Made by a program: the position numbers and the translations under genes. DNA of 52,288 nucleotides from Escherichia phage vB_EcoM_Bp10. The notes beneath the pieces are model-generated. The model did not search any database. It worked only from the letters and a program-made list of their open reading frames with translations, and was not told the DNA's origin. Numbering within the stretch: position 1 is the first letter of the stretch; each line of letters starts with the position of its first letter. This document shows positions 3,109 through 45,143 of this stretch, piece by piece. The DNA is taken from sequence record MN122072; one strand, given 5' to 3'.

Positions 3109-3727
3109 GCGATTAGCTGTTATTCTCAATGGACCTCCTGGCTGCGGCAAAGACACCATTGCAAATAAGATTGTTGCTGCTGAGGAACCTTACTTCCTCG
3201 GCAGACGCAAATTCATTAAACACCAGTTTAAGGATGCACTGTATGAGCATACTGCCAAACACTTTCAAGTTGATGTGGACAAGTTTATTCACTACGCTTC
3301 GGACCGTGACCTCAAAGACTCTATCTCCCTTGCAGGTCTTGGTGGCAGAACACCTCGTCAGGCTCTTATTCACGTTAGCGAAGATGTGTATAAGCCTCGC
3401 CACGGACAAGACTACTTCGGTAAGGTTGAAGCTGCTCGTGTTAAAGAACTCGCGGGGCGTATGGGTGGCATTATTAATGTCATTTATCCCGATGGCGGTT
3501 TTGGTGATGAAGTCGTTGCCATTGAGTCTGCTTATGATTTTGTCCTCGTTGTGCGTTTGCATCGTGATGGTTTTGATTTCACGGGCGATTCTCGCAGATA
3601 CATCAACCTCCCAGACACACCTACCCGCGTAACAGTGGACGAACATTTAGTTGATGGTAAAGTGGGTGATTCTGTATTCAAAGTGTTCAACTGGATTGAA
3701 CGCGTAACCTATAAAGTAGAGAAATAA
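3101..3727 (+). CDS. P-loop NTPase, putative (deoxy)nucleotide kinase
   Basis: Walker A GPPGCGKDT near the N-terminus; small size and nucleotide-metabolism neighbourhood. Start re-picked to in-frame TTG 3101 (GAGGA 5 nt upstream); ORF track starts at 2999. Confidence 0.5.
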   Translation: MIKRLAVILNGPPGCGKDTIANKIVAAEEPYFLGRRKFIKHQFKDALYEHTAKHFQVDVDKFIHYASDRDLKDSISLAGLGGRTPRQALIHVSEDVYKPRHGQDYFGKVEAARVKELAGRMGGIINVIYPDGGFGDEVVAIESAYDFVLVVRLHRDGFDFTGDSRRYINLPDTPTRVTVDEHLVDGKVGDSVFKVFNWIERVTYKVEK

Positions 3728-40331: not shown

Positions 40332-40622
40332 ATGGAGAATCCGATGAATTACGAAGATATTCCAAGAGAGTTAAATGCACTGGAGTCAAGAACCATCCGT
40401 GCAGAGAATATTCTCCACCAGCACCTATCAATTAACGTGGGTGATGAAAAGAAGATGCAGTACACTATGGAACTTGACGATGTAGTCTACACTGTCAGTT
40501 ACAACGAGAAGGCTGCTATCCTCAGTGCACTTATTAAAGGTGGGAATGAGCGAATCAATCAACTTAAGATTCTGGACACAGAATTGAGAGGTACTTGGGA
40601 GAAACTAAATGCAAAACACTAA
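40332..40622 (+). CDS. hypothetical protein
   Basis: ORF with AGGAGA-like RBS context (ATGGAGAATCCGATG). Confidence 0.4.
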   Translation: MENPMNYEDIPRELNALESRTIRAENILHQHLSINVGDEKKMQYTMELDDVVYTVSYNEKAAILSALIKGGNERINQLKILDTELRGTWEKLNAKH

Positions 40623-41157
40623 CATTATTCAAGCAGTAGAACAGCTTAAGTCCTGGCGTAGAGATGAAAATTTATTGGTTCGTTTCTACACAGGCGAAAC
40701 TAATTCTGAATTTGTAGATGCGTGGATTGATGGCCTGTCTTGGCGTCATTATGATTTCAACATGCGGGATTATTTGCATGAAGAATACGGCATTGAATAT
40801 CCAGAAGACGGTACATACGACATTCTGGAATCAAGCGAAGAAGACGTTACCGAAGTTTGCTTTGCCAATGGACTATTCAGCATTCGTAAATATGATAAGT
40901 TCAATGAGCTGCTCGTTGACACCGATTTGGATGTAATTCTTGCAGCATTCCGCAGTGGTGAGATTGATATTTTCACTGTAGACGATTTGAATGACAAGGT
41001 TATTGCTCTGTGTGATTCAATTGTGGATTACTTCAAAAACTACGAAGGAATAGAAGTTCCAGACCACCTTCGTCCATATATTGATTGGGATGCAATCGCC
41101 AGAGATTATGGAAGTGACTACATTTTCTCTGAGGGAATACTGTTCTTAAATGCGTGA
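40609..41157 (+). CDS. strongly acidic protein (about 40 Asp/Glu in 182 aa), DNA-mimic-like
   Basis: Hand count gives about 40 D/E against about 13 K/R; stretches like EEYGIEYPEDGTYDILESSEEDVTEV. Confidence 0.45.
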   Translation: MQNTNIIQAVEQLKSWRRDENLLVRFYTGETNSEFVDAWIDGLSWRHYDFNMRDYLHEEYGIEYPEDGTYDILESSEEDVTEVCFANGLFSIRKYDKFNELLVDTDLDVILAAFRSGEIDIFTVDDLNDKVIALCDSIVDYFKNYEGIEVPDHLRPYIDWDAIARDYGSDYIFSEGILFLNA

Positions 41158-41392: not shown

Positions 41393-41455
41393 TTCCAAGC
41401 TGTTCCGTCGAAGTGCCAAGCGGGTTTTGTGCTCGCATTGGCCTTCGGCTTTAGT

Positions 41456-41480
41456 CTGAAACATTAGTGGGATTTGATTC
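41456..41480 (+). promoter_or_regulatory. copy of conserved motif, candidate phage promoter
   Basis: tctgaaACATTAGTgGGATtTGatt. Confidence 0.4.
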
Positions 41481-41595
41481 GGACCACTTAGGGAAGAAAG
41501 GCATTATACACTTATCGCCAAATGGGTGTCAAGCACTTTCTTCATTTATTTTAATTTATTCTTATTATTCTTTTTGTTTGGAATATTGGAATAAT

Positions 41596-41620
41596 TCTGA
41601 AACATTAGTTGGAATTGAAG
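41596..41620 (+). promoter_or_regulatory. copy of conserved motif, candidate phage promoter
   Basis: tctgaaACATTAGTTGGAaTTGaag; 20 bp upstream of a tRNA-like minihelix. Confidence 0.4.
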
Positions 41621-41639
41621 AGACAACATCAGATAAGAG

Positions 41640-41704
41640 CTTTGTAACTAGGTAGTCCGTCTGGTACCAGGGCGTGTGAGAACGTTCGATTCGTTCTACA
41701 AAGT
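41640..41704 (+). ncRNA. tRNA-like element (perfect 7-bp acceptor stem plus T-arm, shortened body)
   Basis: CTTTGTA (41640-46) pairs with TACAAAG (41697-703); adjacent T-arm GAACG-TTCGATT-CGTTC (41680-96); body about 8 nt too short for canonical D and anticodon arms. Confidence 0.3.
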
Positions 41705-42256
41705 TCTTTTCGATGGAATGTTTCCATCAAATACATTTATCTTTTAACATAGGCCAAAGGGCCGGAATACTTCTTCGCAGAAAGCTGTTCACTTGTTATA
41801 GCGATGTATTGGGATGAATTGGTACTAAATAAGCAAGCTGTTAGGGCTGAATAATTAGAGGGTAGTGCCTCATGCTTATGTTAGTCATTCGAAAATAGGT
41901 TTGTGCCACAAGCTGCTGGTGCTCCGAGGAAGTCGGACAAACAGGGCTTAGAGTGGCATAATCCGCACAAAACCGCGCCACCAGCTATGCCAAAGCAGGT
42001 AGGTTGGGTGAATGTATTGGGAAGGGTTGCAAAGCCTCTGTGACACGCCTGAGCCGCAAGGCGACAACACTCATGTGATTAGCGTATCGCACCCTAACGG
42101 GAGTAACTCTTCACCAATGCAGTTATCCAGAATTGACACAAACGGTAGGCAGTGGCCCGATTTTCGGCCTTCCTGCGCTACTCTGTGGCCTGTTTTACCA
42201 GGCTAAAAGATGAGAAGAGAAGTCACAAACACTGAATCGAAAATTGGAGAGTTCCT

Positions 42257-42577
42257 ATGATTCGCAAGCATTCTGCTAAAGTTTTGACGTTAAGAAATGT
42301 ACTAATGTTTCTGTCGAGTGAGGAAGGAGAGGAAGAAACAATCCACTTCGTTCTCGTTGGCGGGCGTTGGTACTATAACGGCACTAATTCTTTCCACGTA
42401 AGTCTGTCGGAGAAAGATGGATTCTGGAAGCACACCTTTAAGGAGTTGCTTGAGAGCAGTGCCAGTTATACACTTGCCGAAGTTAAGAAGTATTTCTACT
42501 GCGGCCCAAACAAGTCCATGCAAATCGCAACTCGCAACTGGACAACAAACCAACCGATTTACGGAGTTCCATTTTGA
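42257..42577 (+). CDS. hypothetical protein
   Basis: 106-aa ORF with GGAGA RBS, first gene after the ORF-free region. Confidence 0.45.
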   Translation: MIRKHSAKVLTLRNVLMFLSSEEGEEETIHFVLVGGRWYYNGTNSFHVSLSEKDGFWKHTFKELLESSASYTLAEVKKYFYCGPNKSMQIATRNWTTNQPIYGVPF

Positions 42578-42865: not shown

Positions 42866-43540
42866 ATGTCTTATCATGATGATGACAAAGAGATTGCACT
42901 ATCAACGTGTAAGCAATGGCTCAATGATAATGATGCCGTCTATCTTGCCAAGGAAGATGTTATCATTATGTGGGTCCATTTTAATCCAGAATCGAAGCGC
43001 GGTGAGTGGCAACGCTACAAGATGAAAGAGGCTTGTCGCATAATTAAAGCCACACGCGCTGGCTTCTCTGCTATGAAGTATATTAAGCCAGAGATGCTGA
43101 TGCTTGCTGCACAGGAAGAAGAACGTGCATATAAGCAAGCTGTTAAATCTCGTTCAACTGTTCCTCCAGAGTTCTTTAATTTGGAGCGCGCTGGACACTT
43201 CAACAATTTAGAAATGTTGACACTATGCCTGTTGCAAGAATTAGTTGGAAGAGGACAAAACATTGAAGCTGTTTGTCTTGGAGAACTCATGAAAGAGTTG
43301 TTCTCGGCAAAGGGCTTTGCTGTGCCAAATCGAACTTTACGCTGGAAATTGTTGCGAGCAGTCGCGCAAGAAGCTGGTGTAGTTGTTCGTGACAGAACAA
43401 ACCGACTCACTGTAACTGGAGTTGGGCGTTTTGTAGCAATCCAGATTGAGGGTTATGACGAATCAATCATCACTGAACTCACTGTCGCTGAGACAAAGGA
43501 TTTAGTAAATAAAACACTGGAACGATTCAATAGATATTGA
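42866..43540 (+). CDS. hypothetical protein
   Basis: Start at ATG 42866 immediately after the upstream stop; ORF track starts at 42809. Confidence 0.45.
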   Translation: MSYHDDDKEIALSTCKQWLNDNDAVYLAKEDVIIMWVHFNPESKRGEWQRYKMKEACRIIKATRAGFSAMKYIKPEMLMLAAQEEERAYKQAVKSRSTVPPEFFNLERAGHFNNLEMLTLCLLQELVGRGQNIEAVCLGELMKELFSAKGFAVPNRTLRWKLLRAVAQEAGVVVRDRTNRLTVTGVGRFVAIQIEGYDESIITELTVAETKDLVNKTLERFNRY

Positions 43541-43563: not shown

Positions 43564-43588
43564 TCTGAAACATTAGTTGGATGTGGAA
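43564..43588 (+). promoter_or_regulatory. copy of conserved motif (perfect core), candidate phage promoter
   Basis: tctgaaACATTAGTTGGATGTGgaa, 75 bp upstream of a codon-optimised gene. Confidence 0.45.
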
Positions 43589-43663
43589 AGAGAAAGGCTC
43601 TTTAATTTTATCTAAGTCACGTCACCGTGGCGTGCAAAACTATTCAATATAAGGTATATACAA

Positions 43664-44002
43664 ATGGCTAAGATTGTAACCGTAACTCAGTACGAAGCTA
43701 ACGATGGTTCCCTGTTCCTGACCGAAGCAGAGTGTAATGCACATGACTTCAAACTGGAAAACGGTGCTAAAATTGAGAAAGCTGCCGAAGCGTACCTGAA
43801 CACCGTTGGCGCTATCGACCGTTCTCGCTCCATGCAGAAGAACACCATCGAGCAGTTCCTGGCATTCTACCTGCCGTGGGTTGAAGCTGGTGAGCCGGAA
43901 GTTGAGCGTACTAAGTTCGATACTCCGAAAGAAGCTAAAGTTGCTGACGCAAGTGTTGCCGAAGCTGCCGAAGCTGCTGTAGAAGAAGCTCCGGTATTCT
44001 GA
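43664..44002 (+). CDS. acidic, apparently highly expressed 112-aa protein
   Basis: Codon usage like structural genes; about 21 D/E against 11 K/R; Ala/Glu-rich C-terminus; directly behind a perfect motif copy. Confidence 0.5.
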   Translation: MAKIVTVTQYEANDGSLFLTEAECNAHDFKLENGAKIEKAAEAYLNTVGAIDRSRSMQKNTIEQFLAFYLPWVEAGEPEVERTKFDTPKEAKVADASVAEAAEAAVEEAPVF

Positions 44003-44383
44003 GTTGCCGATGGCAAACTTGAGAGACTAAGCTAAATCGATCTGGCATGCACTGGAAGTTTTCCGGTGCTGCCTTGAACCCATTCCAGAGTGAGTGGGCT
44101 TCAATTTGTACATAATCCAAACACCATTGCATGAGCCTTCGACGGGAGGCAATGTTGGGAAATTTGTTGTGTACAAATTGAAGTAGTTTTCTGAGTCTTA
44201 CGACGGGCCTAAACTGCCTGGAGTTATTGCGACTGTTTTATTCATTTAAAATAAATGCAAATGATTCTGAAATGCGAGTTGCGGCTTAATTAAATTTAAG
44301 TCCTCTCCGTGGTCTTCCAATCCCACGTAACCAAATTTGGCGCATTGTGGCTTCGAGATGTGATTAATAAATCGGAGCAATAA

Positions 44384-44580
44384 TTAATTTGTATTCTGCG
44401 ATGCAACGCAGGCTTAAGTCCCTCAGTGCGCGTGGGGATGTGACAGAGTACAAACTTAATTACTAATTTGTATTCTGGTGTTGTTCGCCAAGATTGGTGC
44501 ACTCATGATTGGTAGTGTTGGAGAGCGCGGAGCCTAAAATATTATCTGGCATCTCCTACCAGAGTACAAACTTAATTATG
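44384..44580 (+). repeat. inverted and direct repeats of an 18-bp unit TAATTAATTTGTATTCTG, including a 36-bp imperfect palindrome at 44444-44478
   Basis: taattaatttgtattctg at 44388 and about 44463; reverse-complement form cagagtacaaacttaatta at 44444 and about 44560; related TTTGTTGTGTACAAATTG palindrome near 44160. Confidence 0.45.
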
Positions 44581-45019
44581 CAGTTGGATATTTCTAGAGG
44601 ACGGACGAGCACACTGGAATGTCTTCAATTGGTTTAGTGTGAGAAGCTATGGCAATTTGAAACGTAACTCCTTGGGGAAGTGCTCCTCTGGATTTCCCTC
44701 CACACAGGAATCTCAAGCCTGTGGCAGCGACTTCGAAGCTGCACTGCGTAACCTAAATTCACCCTAAAGTGAGTTGCCCTGAGTATGGAAATAAACTGCT
44801 CATAACCGATGGTATCTACAAAGGTAGATTAAATCAGGTTGCCTGTTGGTACTTGGGTTCAACACCTGCTTGCACTCGCAAAGTAGTGCCTCGTACCTGA
44901 GATGAAGTGAGTCGGGACCATCAATCCCACGTTATGCCAAAACATAGTAGGCGGCTCACAGATTCTACAAGCCTCGCAGTTCGGGAAAACCTGCGTTATC
45001 AAAACCCCCTTTTTTATTT

Positions 45020-45113
45020 GGACGAGTAGCTCAGAAGGTTTGCATTGTGCTCAGTCAGGTAGAGCAATCTGTTCGACAGATGTGTCGTTGGTTCGAATCC
45101 AACCTCGTCCACC
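45020..45113 (+). tRNA. tRNA-like gene, non-canonical (duplicated D-arm 5' segment, 5-nt anticodon loop)
   Basis: GGACGAG (45020-26) pairs with CTCGTCC (45104-10); T-arm GTTGG-TTCGAAT-CCAAC (45087-103); canonical D-arm GCTCAGTCAGGTAGAGC (45049-65) preceded by an extra TAGCTCAGAAGG; anticodon stem ATCTG/CAGAT has a 5-nt loop. Confidence 0.35.
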
Positions 45114-45143
45114 CACTTTAATAATAGCAATACTGGAGTCCTT

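What the first reader, a model, noticed from the sequence alone, without database searches (positions are those of the whole stretch)
43564..44002. Codon-optimised acidic 112-aa protein directly behind a perfect promoter-motif copy
Codon usage matches the capsid and sheath genes, implying abundant expression, and a perfect motif copy sits 75 bp upstream. It is the last gene before 1.1 kb of non-coding DNA. Its acidity and Ala/Glu-rich tail fit either a DNA mimic or an abundant virion component.
Basis: inference. Interest (0 to 1): 0.5.

Follow-up and report, generated by a model that had tools for sequence, protein, structure and literature searches.

The report
Abundant acidic-tailed phage replication accessory protein
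This small, uncharacterised phage gene looks built for very high expression and carries a flexible acidic tail ending in phenylalanine, like the tails that DNA-replication proteins use to dock onto each other, and it always sits beside the phage's replication genes, so it is most likely an untested replication helper rather than a virus-particle protein.

Summary
The window is a near-complete Carltongylesvirus (Chaseviridae) genome, and ORF 43664-44002 is phiEcoM-GJ1 gp29, annotated 'hypothetical'. The 25-nt motif at 43564-43588 ends exactly 75 nt before the ATG and was already annotated in GenBank as 'putative phage promoter 7'. The gene has the highest codon adaptation in the genome (CAI 0.709; capsid 0.595, sheath 0.490; z = 4.4; 0 of 10,000 synonymous nulls reach it).

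Nothing places the gene in the virion module, and its charge density is modest for a DNA mimic.

- **Architecture.** It founds a family with no Pfam, NCBIfam or PDB match. Members have a ~90-aa beta-hairpin plus helical-hairpin domain, then a variable acidic linker. 91 of 119 members end in Phe.
- **Context.** In seven diverged loci the gene directly follows a ~220-aa winged-helix protein (gp28). Wherever enough downstream sequence was held, it precedes a T7 gp4-type primase-helicase; in the longer loci, also a family-A DNA polymerase.
- **Tail.** The tip belongs to the same class as the helicase's C-terminal WDDSLF motif and the SSB and gp2.5 tips.

Best reading (0.42): an abundant replication accessory that docks through this tail. 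Function is untested. I rate it a new variant of a known kind, interest about 0.5.

The parts
43564..43588 (+). Phage-specific promoter-like motif TCTGAAACATTAGTTGGATGTGGAA. It is annotated as 'putative phage promoter 7' in phiEcoM-GJ1.
   Evidence: Exact 18-nt match; 5 copies against 0.12 expected. The core occurs on the coding strand 9 times. It is annotated in EF460875. It is conserved upstream of the homologues in Myduc and Y2. Promoter activity itself is inferred, not shown.
43618..43634 (+). Small hairpin in the 5' leader (CACGTCA-CCG-TGGCGTG).
   Evidence: Present in the MFE and centroid folds. Hairpins of different sequence occupy the same place in Y2 and Myduc. The leader as a whole folds no better than shuffles (z = -0.03), so this part is weak.
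43650..43655 (+). Shine-Dalgarno sequence TAAGGT, 8 nt before the ATG.
   Evidence: Read directly from the sequence. ATATAAGG is conserved in Myduc and Y2.
43664..44002 (+). CDS of 112 aa (phiEcoM-GJ1 gp29 family, PHROG 17419).
   Evidence: 88 homologues were found and 48 cluster representatives in the profile search. CAI 0.709, rank 1 of 54.
43664..43933 (+). Conserved folded domain, aa 1-90. It comprises a beta-hairpin (9-18), helix 21-48, helix 52-74 and the extended conserved segment VERTxFDTPK.
43934..43999 (+). Disordered acidic Ala/Glu/Val linker ending in ...EEAPVF-COOH (aa 91-112).
   Evidence: pLDDT below 50. Length and sequence vary, but the terminal Phe is invariant in A1. 91 of 119 family members end in Phe, and the mean net charge of the last 30 aa is -6.6.
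44003..44098 (+). Three stable hairpins directly after the stop codon. They may be a processing site, a stabiliser or a terminator.
   Evidence: Fold z = -3.2, with 0 of 200 shuffles folding as well. One terminator-like hit at 44079-44098. Coordinates.
42866..43540 (+). Conserved upstream partner gene gp28 (224 aa, PHROG 13087) with a predicted winged-helix domain. Low CAI.
47689..49455 (+). T7 gp4-type primase-helicase (context). Its C-terminal motif WDDSLF lies at aa 567-572 (nt 49387-49404).
   Evidence: phmmer against T7 gp4 chains, E 1e-30. Motif coordinates. The motif is conserved in other loci.
49521..51455 (+). Family-A DNA polymerase (context).
   Evidence: Annotation of phage flopper. 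PF00476 is recorded on the syntenic genes of the diverged loci.

Best explanation
The ORF is a real gene. It is very probably abundantly expressed in the early-to-middle period, from its own phage-RNA-polymerase-type promoter.

Its product is an accessory protein of the phage's T7-like replication module. A small folded head (a beta-hairpin plus a two-helix hairpin, possibly oligomeric) carries a flexible acidic linker. The C-terminal hydrophobic-Phe tip of that linker works like the tips of E. coli SSB (DDDIPF), T7 gp2.5 (...DGDF) and T7 gp4 (...DTDF). It plugs into a basic or hydrophobic pocket of a partner. The most likely partner is the phage family-A DNA polymerase, the same site that would take the helicase's own WDDSLF motif. 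In this way the protein would tether or exchange replisome components. It probably works together with the winged-helix DNA-binding protein gp28 encoded just upstream.

Shown here: the gene, the motif, the codon bias, the architecture, the conservation of the tail, and the synteny.

Inferred: promoter activity, abundance, the binding partner, and any effect on replication.
For: - Expression signals. CAI 0.709, rank 1 of 54, z = 4.4, 0 of 10,000 nulls. The gene has its own motif copy and SD sequence, both conserved across genera. The homologue has the highest CAI in each of 5 diverged loci.
- Architecture. AF2 gives a confident head and a disordered tail. Both alignments show a conserved head, a variable acidic linker and a conserved terminal Phe. 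91 of 119 members end in Phe, 106 of 119 have Phe in the last 4 residues, and the mean tail charge is -6.6. One member ends in ...EDSIPF, like SSB.
- Synteny. A gp28 homologue lies directly upstream in 7 diverged loci. A gp4-type primase-helicase follows within 0-2.3 kb in the five non-Chaseviridae loci that held downstream sequence, with family-A PolA after it in the three that reached that far. A gp2.5-like protein and a 5'-3' exonuclease follow further on.
- Helicase tail. The helicase is a T7 gp4 homologue (E 1e-30). It keeps a W-D-D-x-[LM]-F motif where T7 gp4 has its Phe-terminated tail, and the gp29-family tips are of the same class.
- Literature. The T7 gp2.5 tail anchors on the front basic patch of the polymerase, and a DTDF peptide of gp4 binds gp5 in PDB 6P7E (PMC12339929). 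The reference lists of PMC9917605 and PMC12339929 cite Ghosh et al. 2009 for the essential C-terminal Phe of gp2.5. The SSB-Ct hexapeptide is DDDIPF (PMC5872125 abstract).
Against: - No experiment or proteome exists for any member.
- The Carltongylesvirus tip (APVF) matches the acidic D-x-F tips less well than the tips of distant members do.
- The phage already has two other tail-bearing ssDNA-type proteins: a mini-SSB ending in DFDDDIPF and a post-polymerase protein ending in GMPF that sits in the gp2.5 position. A third tail therefore needs its own rationale.
- Extreme abundance is not expected for a pure adaptor.
- The folded head is net acidic (-6) and resembles no known DNA- or polymerase-binding fold.
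- The polymerase could not be aligned to T7 gp5, so the presence of a basic patch is untested.
- CAI is only a proxy for expression.
Confidence: 0.42

Rival explanations
1. Decoy or inhibitor for host takeover or anti-defence. An abundant protein presents its acidic, Phe-tipped tail as a mimic of ssDNA or of the SSB C-terminus. It thereby saturates host proteins that read such tails or bind DNA, such as exonucleases, helicases, or defence sensors that watch phage SSBs. This is the closest surviving form of the first reader's 'DNA mimic'.
For: Stoichiometric inhibitors of abundant host targets need high copy number, which fits CAI 0.709. The product is acidic overall, pI 4.5. The tail class matches SSB-Ct. 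ArdA-like anti-restriction genes lie nearby in several loci.
Against: The tight, ancient linkage to gp28, the primase-helicase and PolA is unusual for fast-evolving counter-defence genes. So is the high conservation of the head: 57-100% identity within Chaseviridae, with 22 invariant positions. The phage's own SSB carries the perfect host tip DFDDDIPF, and a general SSB-Ct decoy would defeat it. Charge density is modest. No Ocr or ArdA homology was found.
Confidence: 0.2
2. Helicase-loading or origin-organising pair. gp28 (winged helix) would bind phage DNA or an origin. gp29 would be the small loader or adaptor that hands over the primase-helicase. This is analogous in layout to SPP1 G38P-G39P-G40P or lambda O-P. 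I recall both systems from memory and did not check them here.
For: The gene order winged-helix protein, then a small protein with a folded head and disordered tail, then the helicase is conserved in all diverged loci. The best fold matches of gp28 are ORC/Cdc6 winged-helix domains.
Confidence: 0.12
3. A new, non-OB type of single-stranded-DNA-binding or coating protein. It would be functionally equivalent to T7 gp2.5 or T4 gp32, with the folded head binding ssDNA and the tail regulating that binding.
For: Abundance is typical of stoichiometric SSBs. The tail is identical in kind to SSB and gp2.5 tails. An invariant Asn46, Arg53 and Arg55 cluster at the tip of the helical hairpin, together with several conserved aromatic residues. 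The gene lies in the replication module.
Against: No OB fold is predicted. The head is net -6. The related genomes already encode a gp2.5-like protein (PHROG 112, E 2e-14, in L012). This phage also has an SSB with a host-type tip.
Confidence: 0.1
4. Abundant virion, scaffold or decoration protein.
For: Codon bias equals or exceeds that of the capsid and sheath genes. The product is a small, helical, acidic protein, as I recall some scaffolding proteins to be.
Against: The gene lies about 13 kb from the end of the morphogenesis block. It is embedded among early and replication genes. Its neighbours are conserved replication genes in all diverged loci. Flopper's annotation labels many structural genes but not this one. 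No virion proteome could be read.
Confidence: 0.04

Closest known systems
T7 gp2.5 (ssDNA-binding protein) and the C-terminal tail of T7 gp4
   Same: Both carry a flexible acidic C-terminal tail ending in Phe. Both are encoded in a replication module with a gp4-type primase-helicase and a family-A polymerase. Abundance is likely in both cases. The helicase of this phage is a true gp4 homologue and keeps a W..F tail motif. Tail-to-polymerase docking is documented for T7 (PMC12339929).
   Different: The protein is half the size of gp2.5. Its predicted head is a beta-hairpin plus helical hairpin, not an OB fold. There is no sequence match to gp2.5-like PHROG 112. Related genomes carry a separate gp2.5-like gene after the polymerase.
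E. coli SSB C-terminal tip (SSB-Ct, DDDIPF)
   Same: Both have an acidic run plus a terminal hydrophobic-Phe carrying a free carboxylate. One family member ends in EDSIPF.
   Different: The window protein ends in EEAPVF, with the Pro shifted and fewer Asp residues. The phage's own 125-aa SSB carries the exact host tip DFDDDIPF.
SPP1 G39P and lambda P type helicase loaders (recalled from memory, not tested by sequence)
   Same: A small protein with a folded N-terminal part and an unstructured C-terminal part. It is encoded between a DNA-binding 'organiser' gene and the helicase gene.
   Different: There is no fold match in the PDB. The helicase here is of the T7 gp4 type. The inferred expression is far higher than that of the helicase.
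YebG (PF07130), an SOS-inducible protein of E. coli of unknown function
   Same: They share the N-terminal beta-hairpin plus helix motif (..F-T-S-x-x-EA-x-A-[HY]-D..), are of similar size and have an acidic C-terminus. JGI named one 54%-identical member 'dsDNA-binding SOS-regulon protein'.
   Different: Only 5 of 27 members hit PF07130, the best at E 0.0099, and the window protein does not hit it at all. hhalign gives a probability of 18% over 25 columns. YebG lacks the terminal Phe.
Ocr and ArdA type DNA mimics
   Same: Small, acidic, and probably abundant early in infection.
   Different: No family match. Much lower charge density. The gene is linked to replication genes. A separate ArdA-like gene is present at 40609-41157.

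Membership tests
OB-fold SSB / T7 gp2.5-like proteins | OB-fold (five-stranded beta-barrel) DNA-binding core | tested here: not met
OB-fold SSB / T7 gp2.5-like proteins | Sequence match to SSB or gp2.5 profiles | tested here: not met
   No hit in Pfam, NCBIfam or PDB sequences. PHROG hits are to families of unknown function only.
OB-fold SSB / T7 gp2.5-like proteins | Acidic flexible C-terminal tail with a terminal aromatic or hydrophobic residue | tested here: met
   The tail is disordered. The terminal Phe is invariant in A1. 91 of 119 members end in Phe, and the mean tail charge is -6.6.
OB-fold SSB / T7 gp2.5-like proteins | Binds single-stranded DNA | not testable with these tools
   This needs purified protein. 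The net charge of -6 on the head argues weakly against it.
Ocr/ArdA-type DNA mimic | Family profile match, or a very high surface density of carboxylates that imitates the DNA backbone | tested here: not met
   No Pfam match even at E up to 10. 21 D+E in 112 residues, with 11 K+R.
YebG (PF07130) | Score above Pfam's gathering threshold, or a confident profile-profile match | tested here: not met
   The window protein has no hit. 5 of 27 relatives hit with E of 0.0099 or worse. hhalign probability is 18%. A remote relationship of the N-terminal motif stays possible.
Single-subunit (T7-like) phage RNA polymerase promoter | A ~20-25 nt conserved sequence, repeated on the coding strand upstream of genes in a genome that encodes such a polymerase | tested here: met
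   5 copies against 0.12 expected. 9 of 10 core matches lie on the + strand. An RNAP gene is annotated. The motif is conserved upstream of the orthologues in two other genera.
Single-subunit (T7-like) phage RNA polymerase promoter | Transcription starts there, driven by the phage polymerase | not testable with these tools
   The ICTV profile states that Chaseviridae promoters have not been identified experimentally (PMC12842549).
Virion structural protein | Encoded in the morphogenesis module and/or detected in purified particles | tested here: not met
   Position: the gene lies in the replication block, not the structural block. Detection in particles: no proteome was available.
Helicase loader (SPP1 G39P / lambda P type) | Fold or sequence similarity to a known loader, and binding to the helicase | tested here: not met

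The most novel reading that the evidence does not exclude
gp28 and gp29 define a previously unrecognised two-protein component of T7-type replisomes. In it, an abundant non-OB protein presents a polymerase- or helicase-docking tail. It would act as a new class of ssDNA-coating, processivity or coupling factor. For example, it could take the place that host thioredoxin, or the gp4 and gp2.5 tails, hold in T7.
Probability: 0.25. Interest if true: 0.7.

Novelty: new variant of a known kind. Interest (0 to 1): 0.5.

Why it matters
T7 is the textbook minimal replisome: polymerase, thioredoxin, primase-helicase and gp2.5. Here a whole clade of phages has the same helicase and polymerase types. It includes the Chaseviridae family, some of whose members (for example ST32) have been proposed as biocontrol agents, and several uncultured lineages. 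These phages conserve two further genes of unknown function directly in front of the helicase. One of the two appears to be among the most highly expressed genes of the phage, and it carries the very kind of tail that organises the T7 and E. coli replisomes.

Working out its partner would show how acidic Phe-tipped tails are distributed among several proteins in one replisome. It could also reveal a new small protein fold with a replication or host-interference role. In practical terms, the promoter, leader and codon-optimised gene form a compact high-expression cassette, and the motif is a testable candidate for the still unproven Chaseviridae promoter.

Tried and rejected
- **Sequence families.** Pfam, NCBIfam, PHROGs and PDB sequence searches of the protein and of its family profile gave nothing with a known function.
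- **YebG lead.** It was raised by one JGI name and by weak Pfam hits. It was tested with hhalign and rejected as a membership claim.
- **Repeat proteins.** P0105 and P0112 carry 5-9 copies of the N-terminal motif, but that motif has no Pfam family.
- **Related loci.** The search for related loci on the diverse alignment failed for lack of a conserved block. Contexts were obtained through the look-up of encoding contigs instead.
- **Basic patch on the polymerase.** The attempt to see whether the polymerase has a T7-like thioredoxin-binding insertion or basic patch failed, because phmmer found no PDB match for the polymerase.
- **Literature.** No expression or virion proteome data were found for this gene. 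The phiEcoM-GJ1 and Y2 genome papers are not held. The ST32 and Tiny papers contain nothing on it. Other searches were empty or irrelevant.
- **5' leader hairpin.** It is not statistically better than shuffles, so it is listed only as a weak part.
- **Close relatives.** GJ1, Bp7 and flopper are too similar (about 99% identity) for any substitution-rate test.

Full report
**What the window is.** BLAST of the region against phage records gives 98% identity to Escherichia phage vB_EcoP_Bp7 and 96-97% to flopper and phiEcoM-GJ1, all Carltongylesvirus (Chaseviridae). The 52-kb window is essentially a whole genome, with all long ORFs on the + strand. The ICTV profile describes chaseviruses as myoviruses that encode a T7-like single-subunit RNA polymerase. 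[quoted passage not shown]

**The observation.**
- The ORF 43664-44002 encodes 112 aa. It is phiEcoM-GJ1 ABR68741, annotated 'hypothetical phage protein'.
- The motif upstream is annotated in that 2007 record as 'putative phage promoter 7'.
- TCTGAAACATTAGTTGGA occurs 5 times with up to 3 mismatches, against 0.12 expected. The core CATTAGTTGGA occurs 10 times against 1.14 expected, 9 of them on the coding strand. One copy lies about 80 nt upstream of the SSB gene.
- The 25-nt copy ends at 43588, exactly 75 nt before the ATG. A TAAGGT Shine-Dalgarno sequence lies 8 nt before the ATG.
- CAI with Sharp-Li E. coli weights (typed in from memory) is 0.709, the highest of 54 genes. The major capsid gene scores 0.595 and the sheath gene 0.490. 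The value is 4.4 SD above the others, and none of 10,000 synonymous re-draws reaches it. All Leu codons are CTG, all Phe TTC, all Pro CCG.
- The product is acidic (pI 4.49) and ends in AKVADASVAEAAEAAVEEAPVF.
- The following 1016 nt contain no ORF above 68 aa before a tRNA at 45019-45115.

The codon-usage statement is, if anything, too cautious.

**The protein itself.** No Pfam, NCBIfam or PDB sequence match exists for the protein or for its family profile. It belongs to PHROG 17419, of unknown function.

The 5.8-billion-protein search found 88 cluster representatives, almost all 112-129 aa; every contig above 40 kb measured about 42-55 kb except one of 106 kb. These are chaseviruses. tblastn finds the protein in Escherichia, Erwinia, Yersinia, Pectobacterium, Pantoea, Proteus, Dickeya and Aeromonas phages, and the sequence is 100% identical among many coliphages.

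The alignment shows three parts:
- a strongly conserved head (residues 1-90, with 22 invariant positions overall);
- an acidic Ala/Glu/Val linker of variable length and sequence;
- an invariant C-terminal Phe, usually in the form P-[VLM]-F.

**The wider family.** A profile search of 1.84 billion cluster representatives found 48 representatives. The full-length relatives are only 24-37% identical but keep the architecture. They also make the tail signature clearer. Their tips read ...EEDDLF...EDELF...EEDMF...EDDSLFL...GDDLFDE...ADLSDFS and, in one case...EDSIPF.

Over 119 full-length members, 91 end in Phe and 106 have Phe among the last four residues. The last 30 residues carry a mean net charge of -6.6.

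This is the same kind of tail as three known ones:
- The E. coli SSB tip DDDIPF (PMC5872125 abstract).
- The Phe-terminated acidic tail of T7 gp2.5. Its anchoring on the polymerase's front basic patch is described in PMC12339929, and its C-terminal Phe is essential (Ghosh et al. 2009, cited in the reference lists seen).
- The T7 gp4 tail, whose DTDF peptide sits on gp5 in PDB 6P7E.

**Genomic context.** This is the most informative result.
- In seven diverged metagenomic loci (L006, L009, L011, L012, L016, L018, L019), the gene immediately upstream is a homologue of the window's gp28 (42866-43540). Matches to the gp28 HMM have E values of 1e-15 to 3e-39.
- Wherever sequence extends downstream, a T7 gp4-type primase-helicase follows within 0-2.3 kb. 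Where the held sequence reaches further (L008, L012/L013, L019), a family-A DNA polymerase follows. In L012/L013 and L019 a ~220-290-aa protein and a 5'-3' exonuclease follow that. A chasevirus-like locus (L021) has the same order up to the post-polymerase protein.
- In L012 the post-polymerase protein matches PHROG 112, 'Gp2.5-like ssDNA binding protein', and ends in ...EEAADDLL.
- The window has the same order. Between gp29 and the helicase lie a 1-kb RNA region, a tRNA, small genes and thymidylate synthase. In Proteus phage Myduc the gap after the gene is only about 280 nt, so the 1.1-kb spacer is not a family feature.
- The gp29-like gene has the highest CAI of its neighbourhood in all five diverged loci tested. 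gp28 is always low.

**The helicase.** The window's primase-helicase aligns to T7 gp4 with E 1e-30. Where T7 gp4 has its acidic Phe-ended tail, it carries SWDDSLFE (aa 566-573 of 588; the WDDSLF core is aa 567-572). The same W-D-D-x-[LM]-F motif is present in the helicases of the other loci, and the gp29-family tips are of the same class.

**Other tails in this phage.** The 125-aa SSB (37633-38010) ends in DFDDDIPF, which is the host SSB tip. The post-polymerase protein ends in ...GMPF. It is homologous to the acidic-tailed L019 protein that occupies the gp2.5 position.

**Interpretation.**

*What is shown.* The gene is real and strongly purified by selection, and it carries all the sequence hallmarks of very high expression. 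Its conserved architecture is a head plus an acidic, Phe-tipped tail. It has an ancient linkage to a winged-helix protein and to a T7-type helicase and polymerase pair.

*What is inferred.* The tail docks on a replisome partner. The most likely partner is the polymerase, by analogy with T7, where both gp4 and gp2.5 use such tails on gp5. The protein would then be an abundant replication accessory. I give this 0.42.

*Rivals, with my confidence in each:*
- An abundant decoy that uses the tail as a mimic of ssDNA or SSB-Ct against host proteins (0.2). The deep linkage to replication genes, the strong conservation of the head, and the phage's own host-type SSB tip argue against it.
- A gp28/gp29 organiser-loader pair comparable in layout to SPP1 G38P/G39P (0.12). 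The lack of a fold match and the expression imbalance argue against it.
- A new non-OB ssDNA-binding protein (0.1). The acidic head and the presence of other SSBs argue against it.
- A virion or scaffold protein (0.04). The gene's position argues against it.

A remote link to the SOS-inducible YebG family was examined. One relative is labelled with the YebG COG name by JGI, and 5 of 27 relatives hit PF07130 weakly. However, hhalign gives only 18% probability over the N-terminal 25 columns. Only the beta-hairpin plus helix motif is shared. That motif also occurs as 5-9 tandem copies in two bacterial surface proteins.

**Novelty and score.** The gene and the motif have been in GenBank since 2007, so the raw observation is not new. 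Four results are not in the records or papers I could reach:
- the extreme codon bias;
- the family-wide Phe-tipped acidic tail;
- the conserved gp28-gp29-helicase-polymerase module beyond Chaseviridae;
- the conservation of the promoter-like motif across genera.

The mechanism proposed is a known kind, tail-mediated replisome docking, carried by an unknown fold. I therefore rate it 'new variant of a known kind' with interest 0.5. Everything about function remains untested.

Noticed in passing
window 44099-44183 (within the 'non-coding' 44003-45018): A long imperfect hairpin is about 80% identical to unannotated DNA inside the tRNA clusters of Felixounavirus phages, for example SP116 between tRNA-Ile and tRNA-Arg. 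Comparing the two copies gives 28 predicted pairs, 7 of them with compensatory double changes. It looks like an undescribed small structured RNA shared by unrelated phage families. Rfam gives only sub-threshold tmRNA-like hits.
   Followed up: partly
window 44249-44379: A second conserved element is 72-86% identical to unannotated DNA in Erwinia and Pantoea chaseviruses, in Ackermannviridae phage YX22 (near a tRNA-Met) and in Klebsiella phage cp16. Three pairs show compensatory changes. Direct repeats CAGAGTACAAACTTAATTA (44444 and 44560) and AAT[TA]A[AC]TAATTTGTATTCTG (20 nt, 90% identical copies at 44379 and 44458) lie just downstream.
   Followed up: partly
window 45019-45115: The single tRNA is called tRNA-Leu(CAG), 97 nt, by ARAGORN. 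In phiEcoM-GJ1 and ST32 it is annotated tRNA-Arg (codon CGA, 'may contain an intron'). By eye, the extra length looks like an insertion in the D-loop region. Its identity is unresolved.
   Followed up: no
window 37633-38010 (motif copy at 37545): The phage's 125-aa SSB ends in DFDDDIPF, the same tip as E. coli SSB. A copy of the promoter-like motif precedes it by about 80 nt. Its CAI is 0.42.
   Followed up: partly
window 51866-52288 joined to 1-336 (flopper gp61 homologue): The protein encoded after the DNA polymerase ends in ...GGTGMPF. It is homologous (29% identity) to a 243-aa protein with an acidic ...EEDDPFA tail in locus L019. It occupies the position of the gp2.5-like protein of L012. 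It also hits NCBIfam 'phage replication initiation protein, NGO0469 family' below threshold. It may be this phage's gp2.5 equivalent.
   Followed up: partly
window 41400-42250: A second ORF-poor stretch of about 0.85 kb follows two motif copies 141 nt apart (41455 and 41596). phiEcoM-GJ1 annotates a 'putative exonuclease SbcC' ORF there, but the window has no ORF of 70 aa or more in that stretch.
   Followed up: no
window 42257-42577: This 106-aa ORF of unknown function (no Pfam or PHROG hit) also ends in ...YGVPF. It is the fourth product in this genome ending in Phe with Pro one or two residues before it (three end in -PF, gp29 in -PVF).
   Followed up: no
L004 (Myduc) about 3440-3465; L005 (Y2) about 3395-3420: The promoter-like motif is conserved upstream of the orthologous gene in other genera: CAACATTAGTTGAGTGTGA in Myduc and GGCATTAGCTGAATGTGA in Y2. 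The 2022 ICTV profile nevertheless says Chaseviridae promoters are unidentified.
   Followed up: partly
proteins P0105 (704 aa) and P0112 (818 aa): Two large bacterial surface-type proteins carry 5-9 tandem copies of the motif [YW]-x-T-S-D-G-x-x-F-x-[ST]-x-x-E-A-x-A-H, which forms the N-terminus of the gp29 family. One of them has SLH domains. The repeat has no Pfam family.
   Followed up: partly
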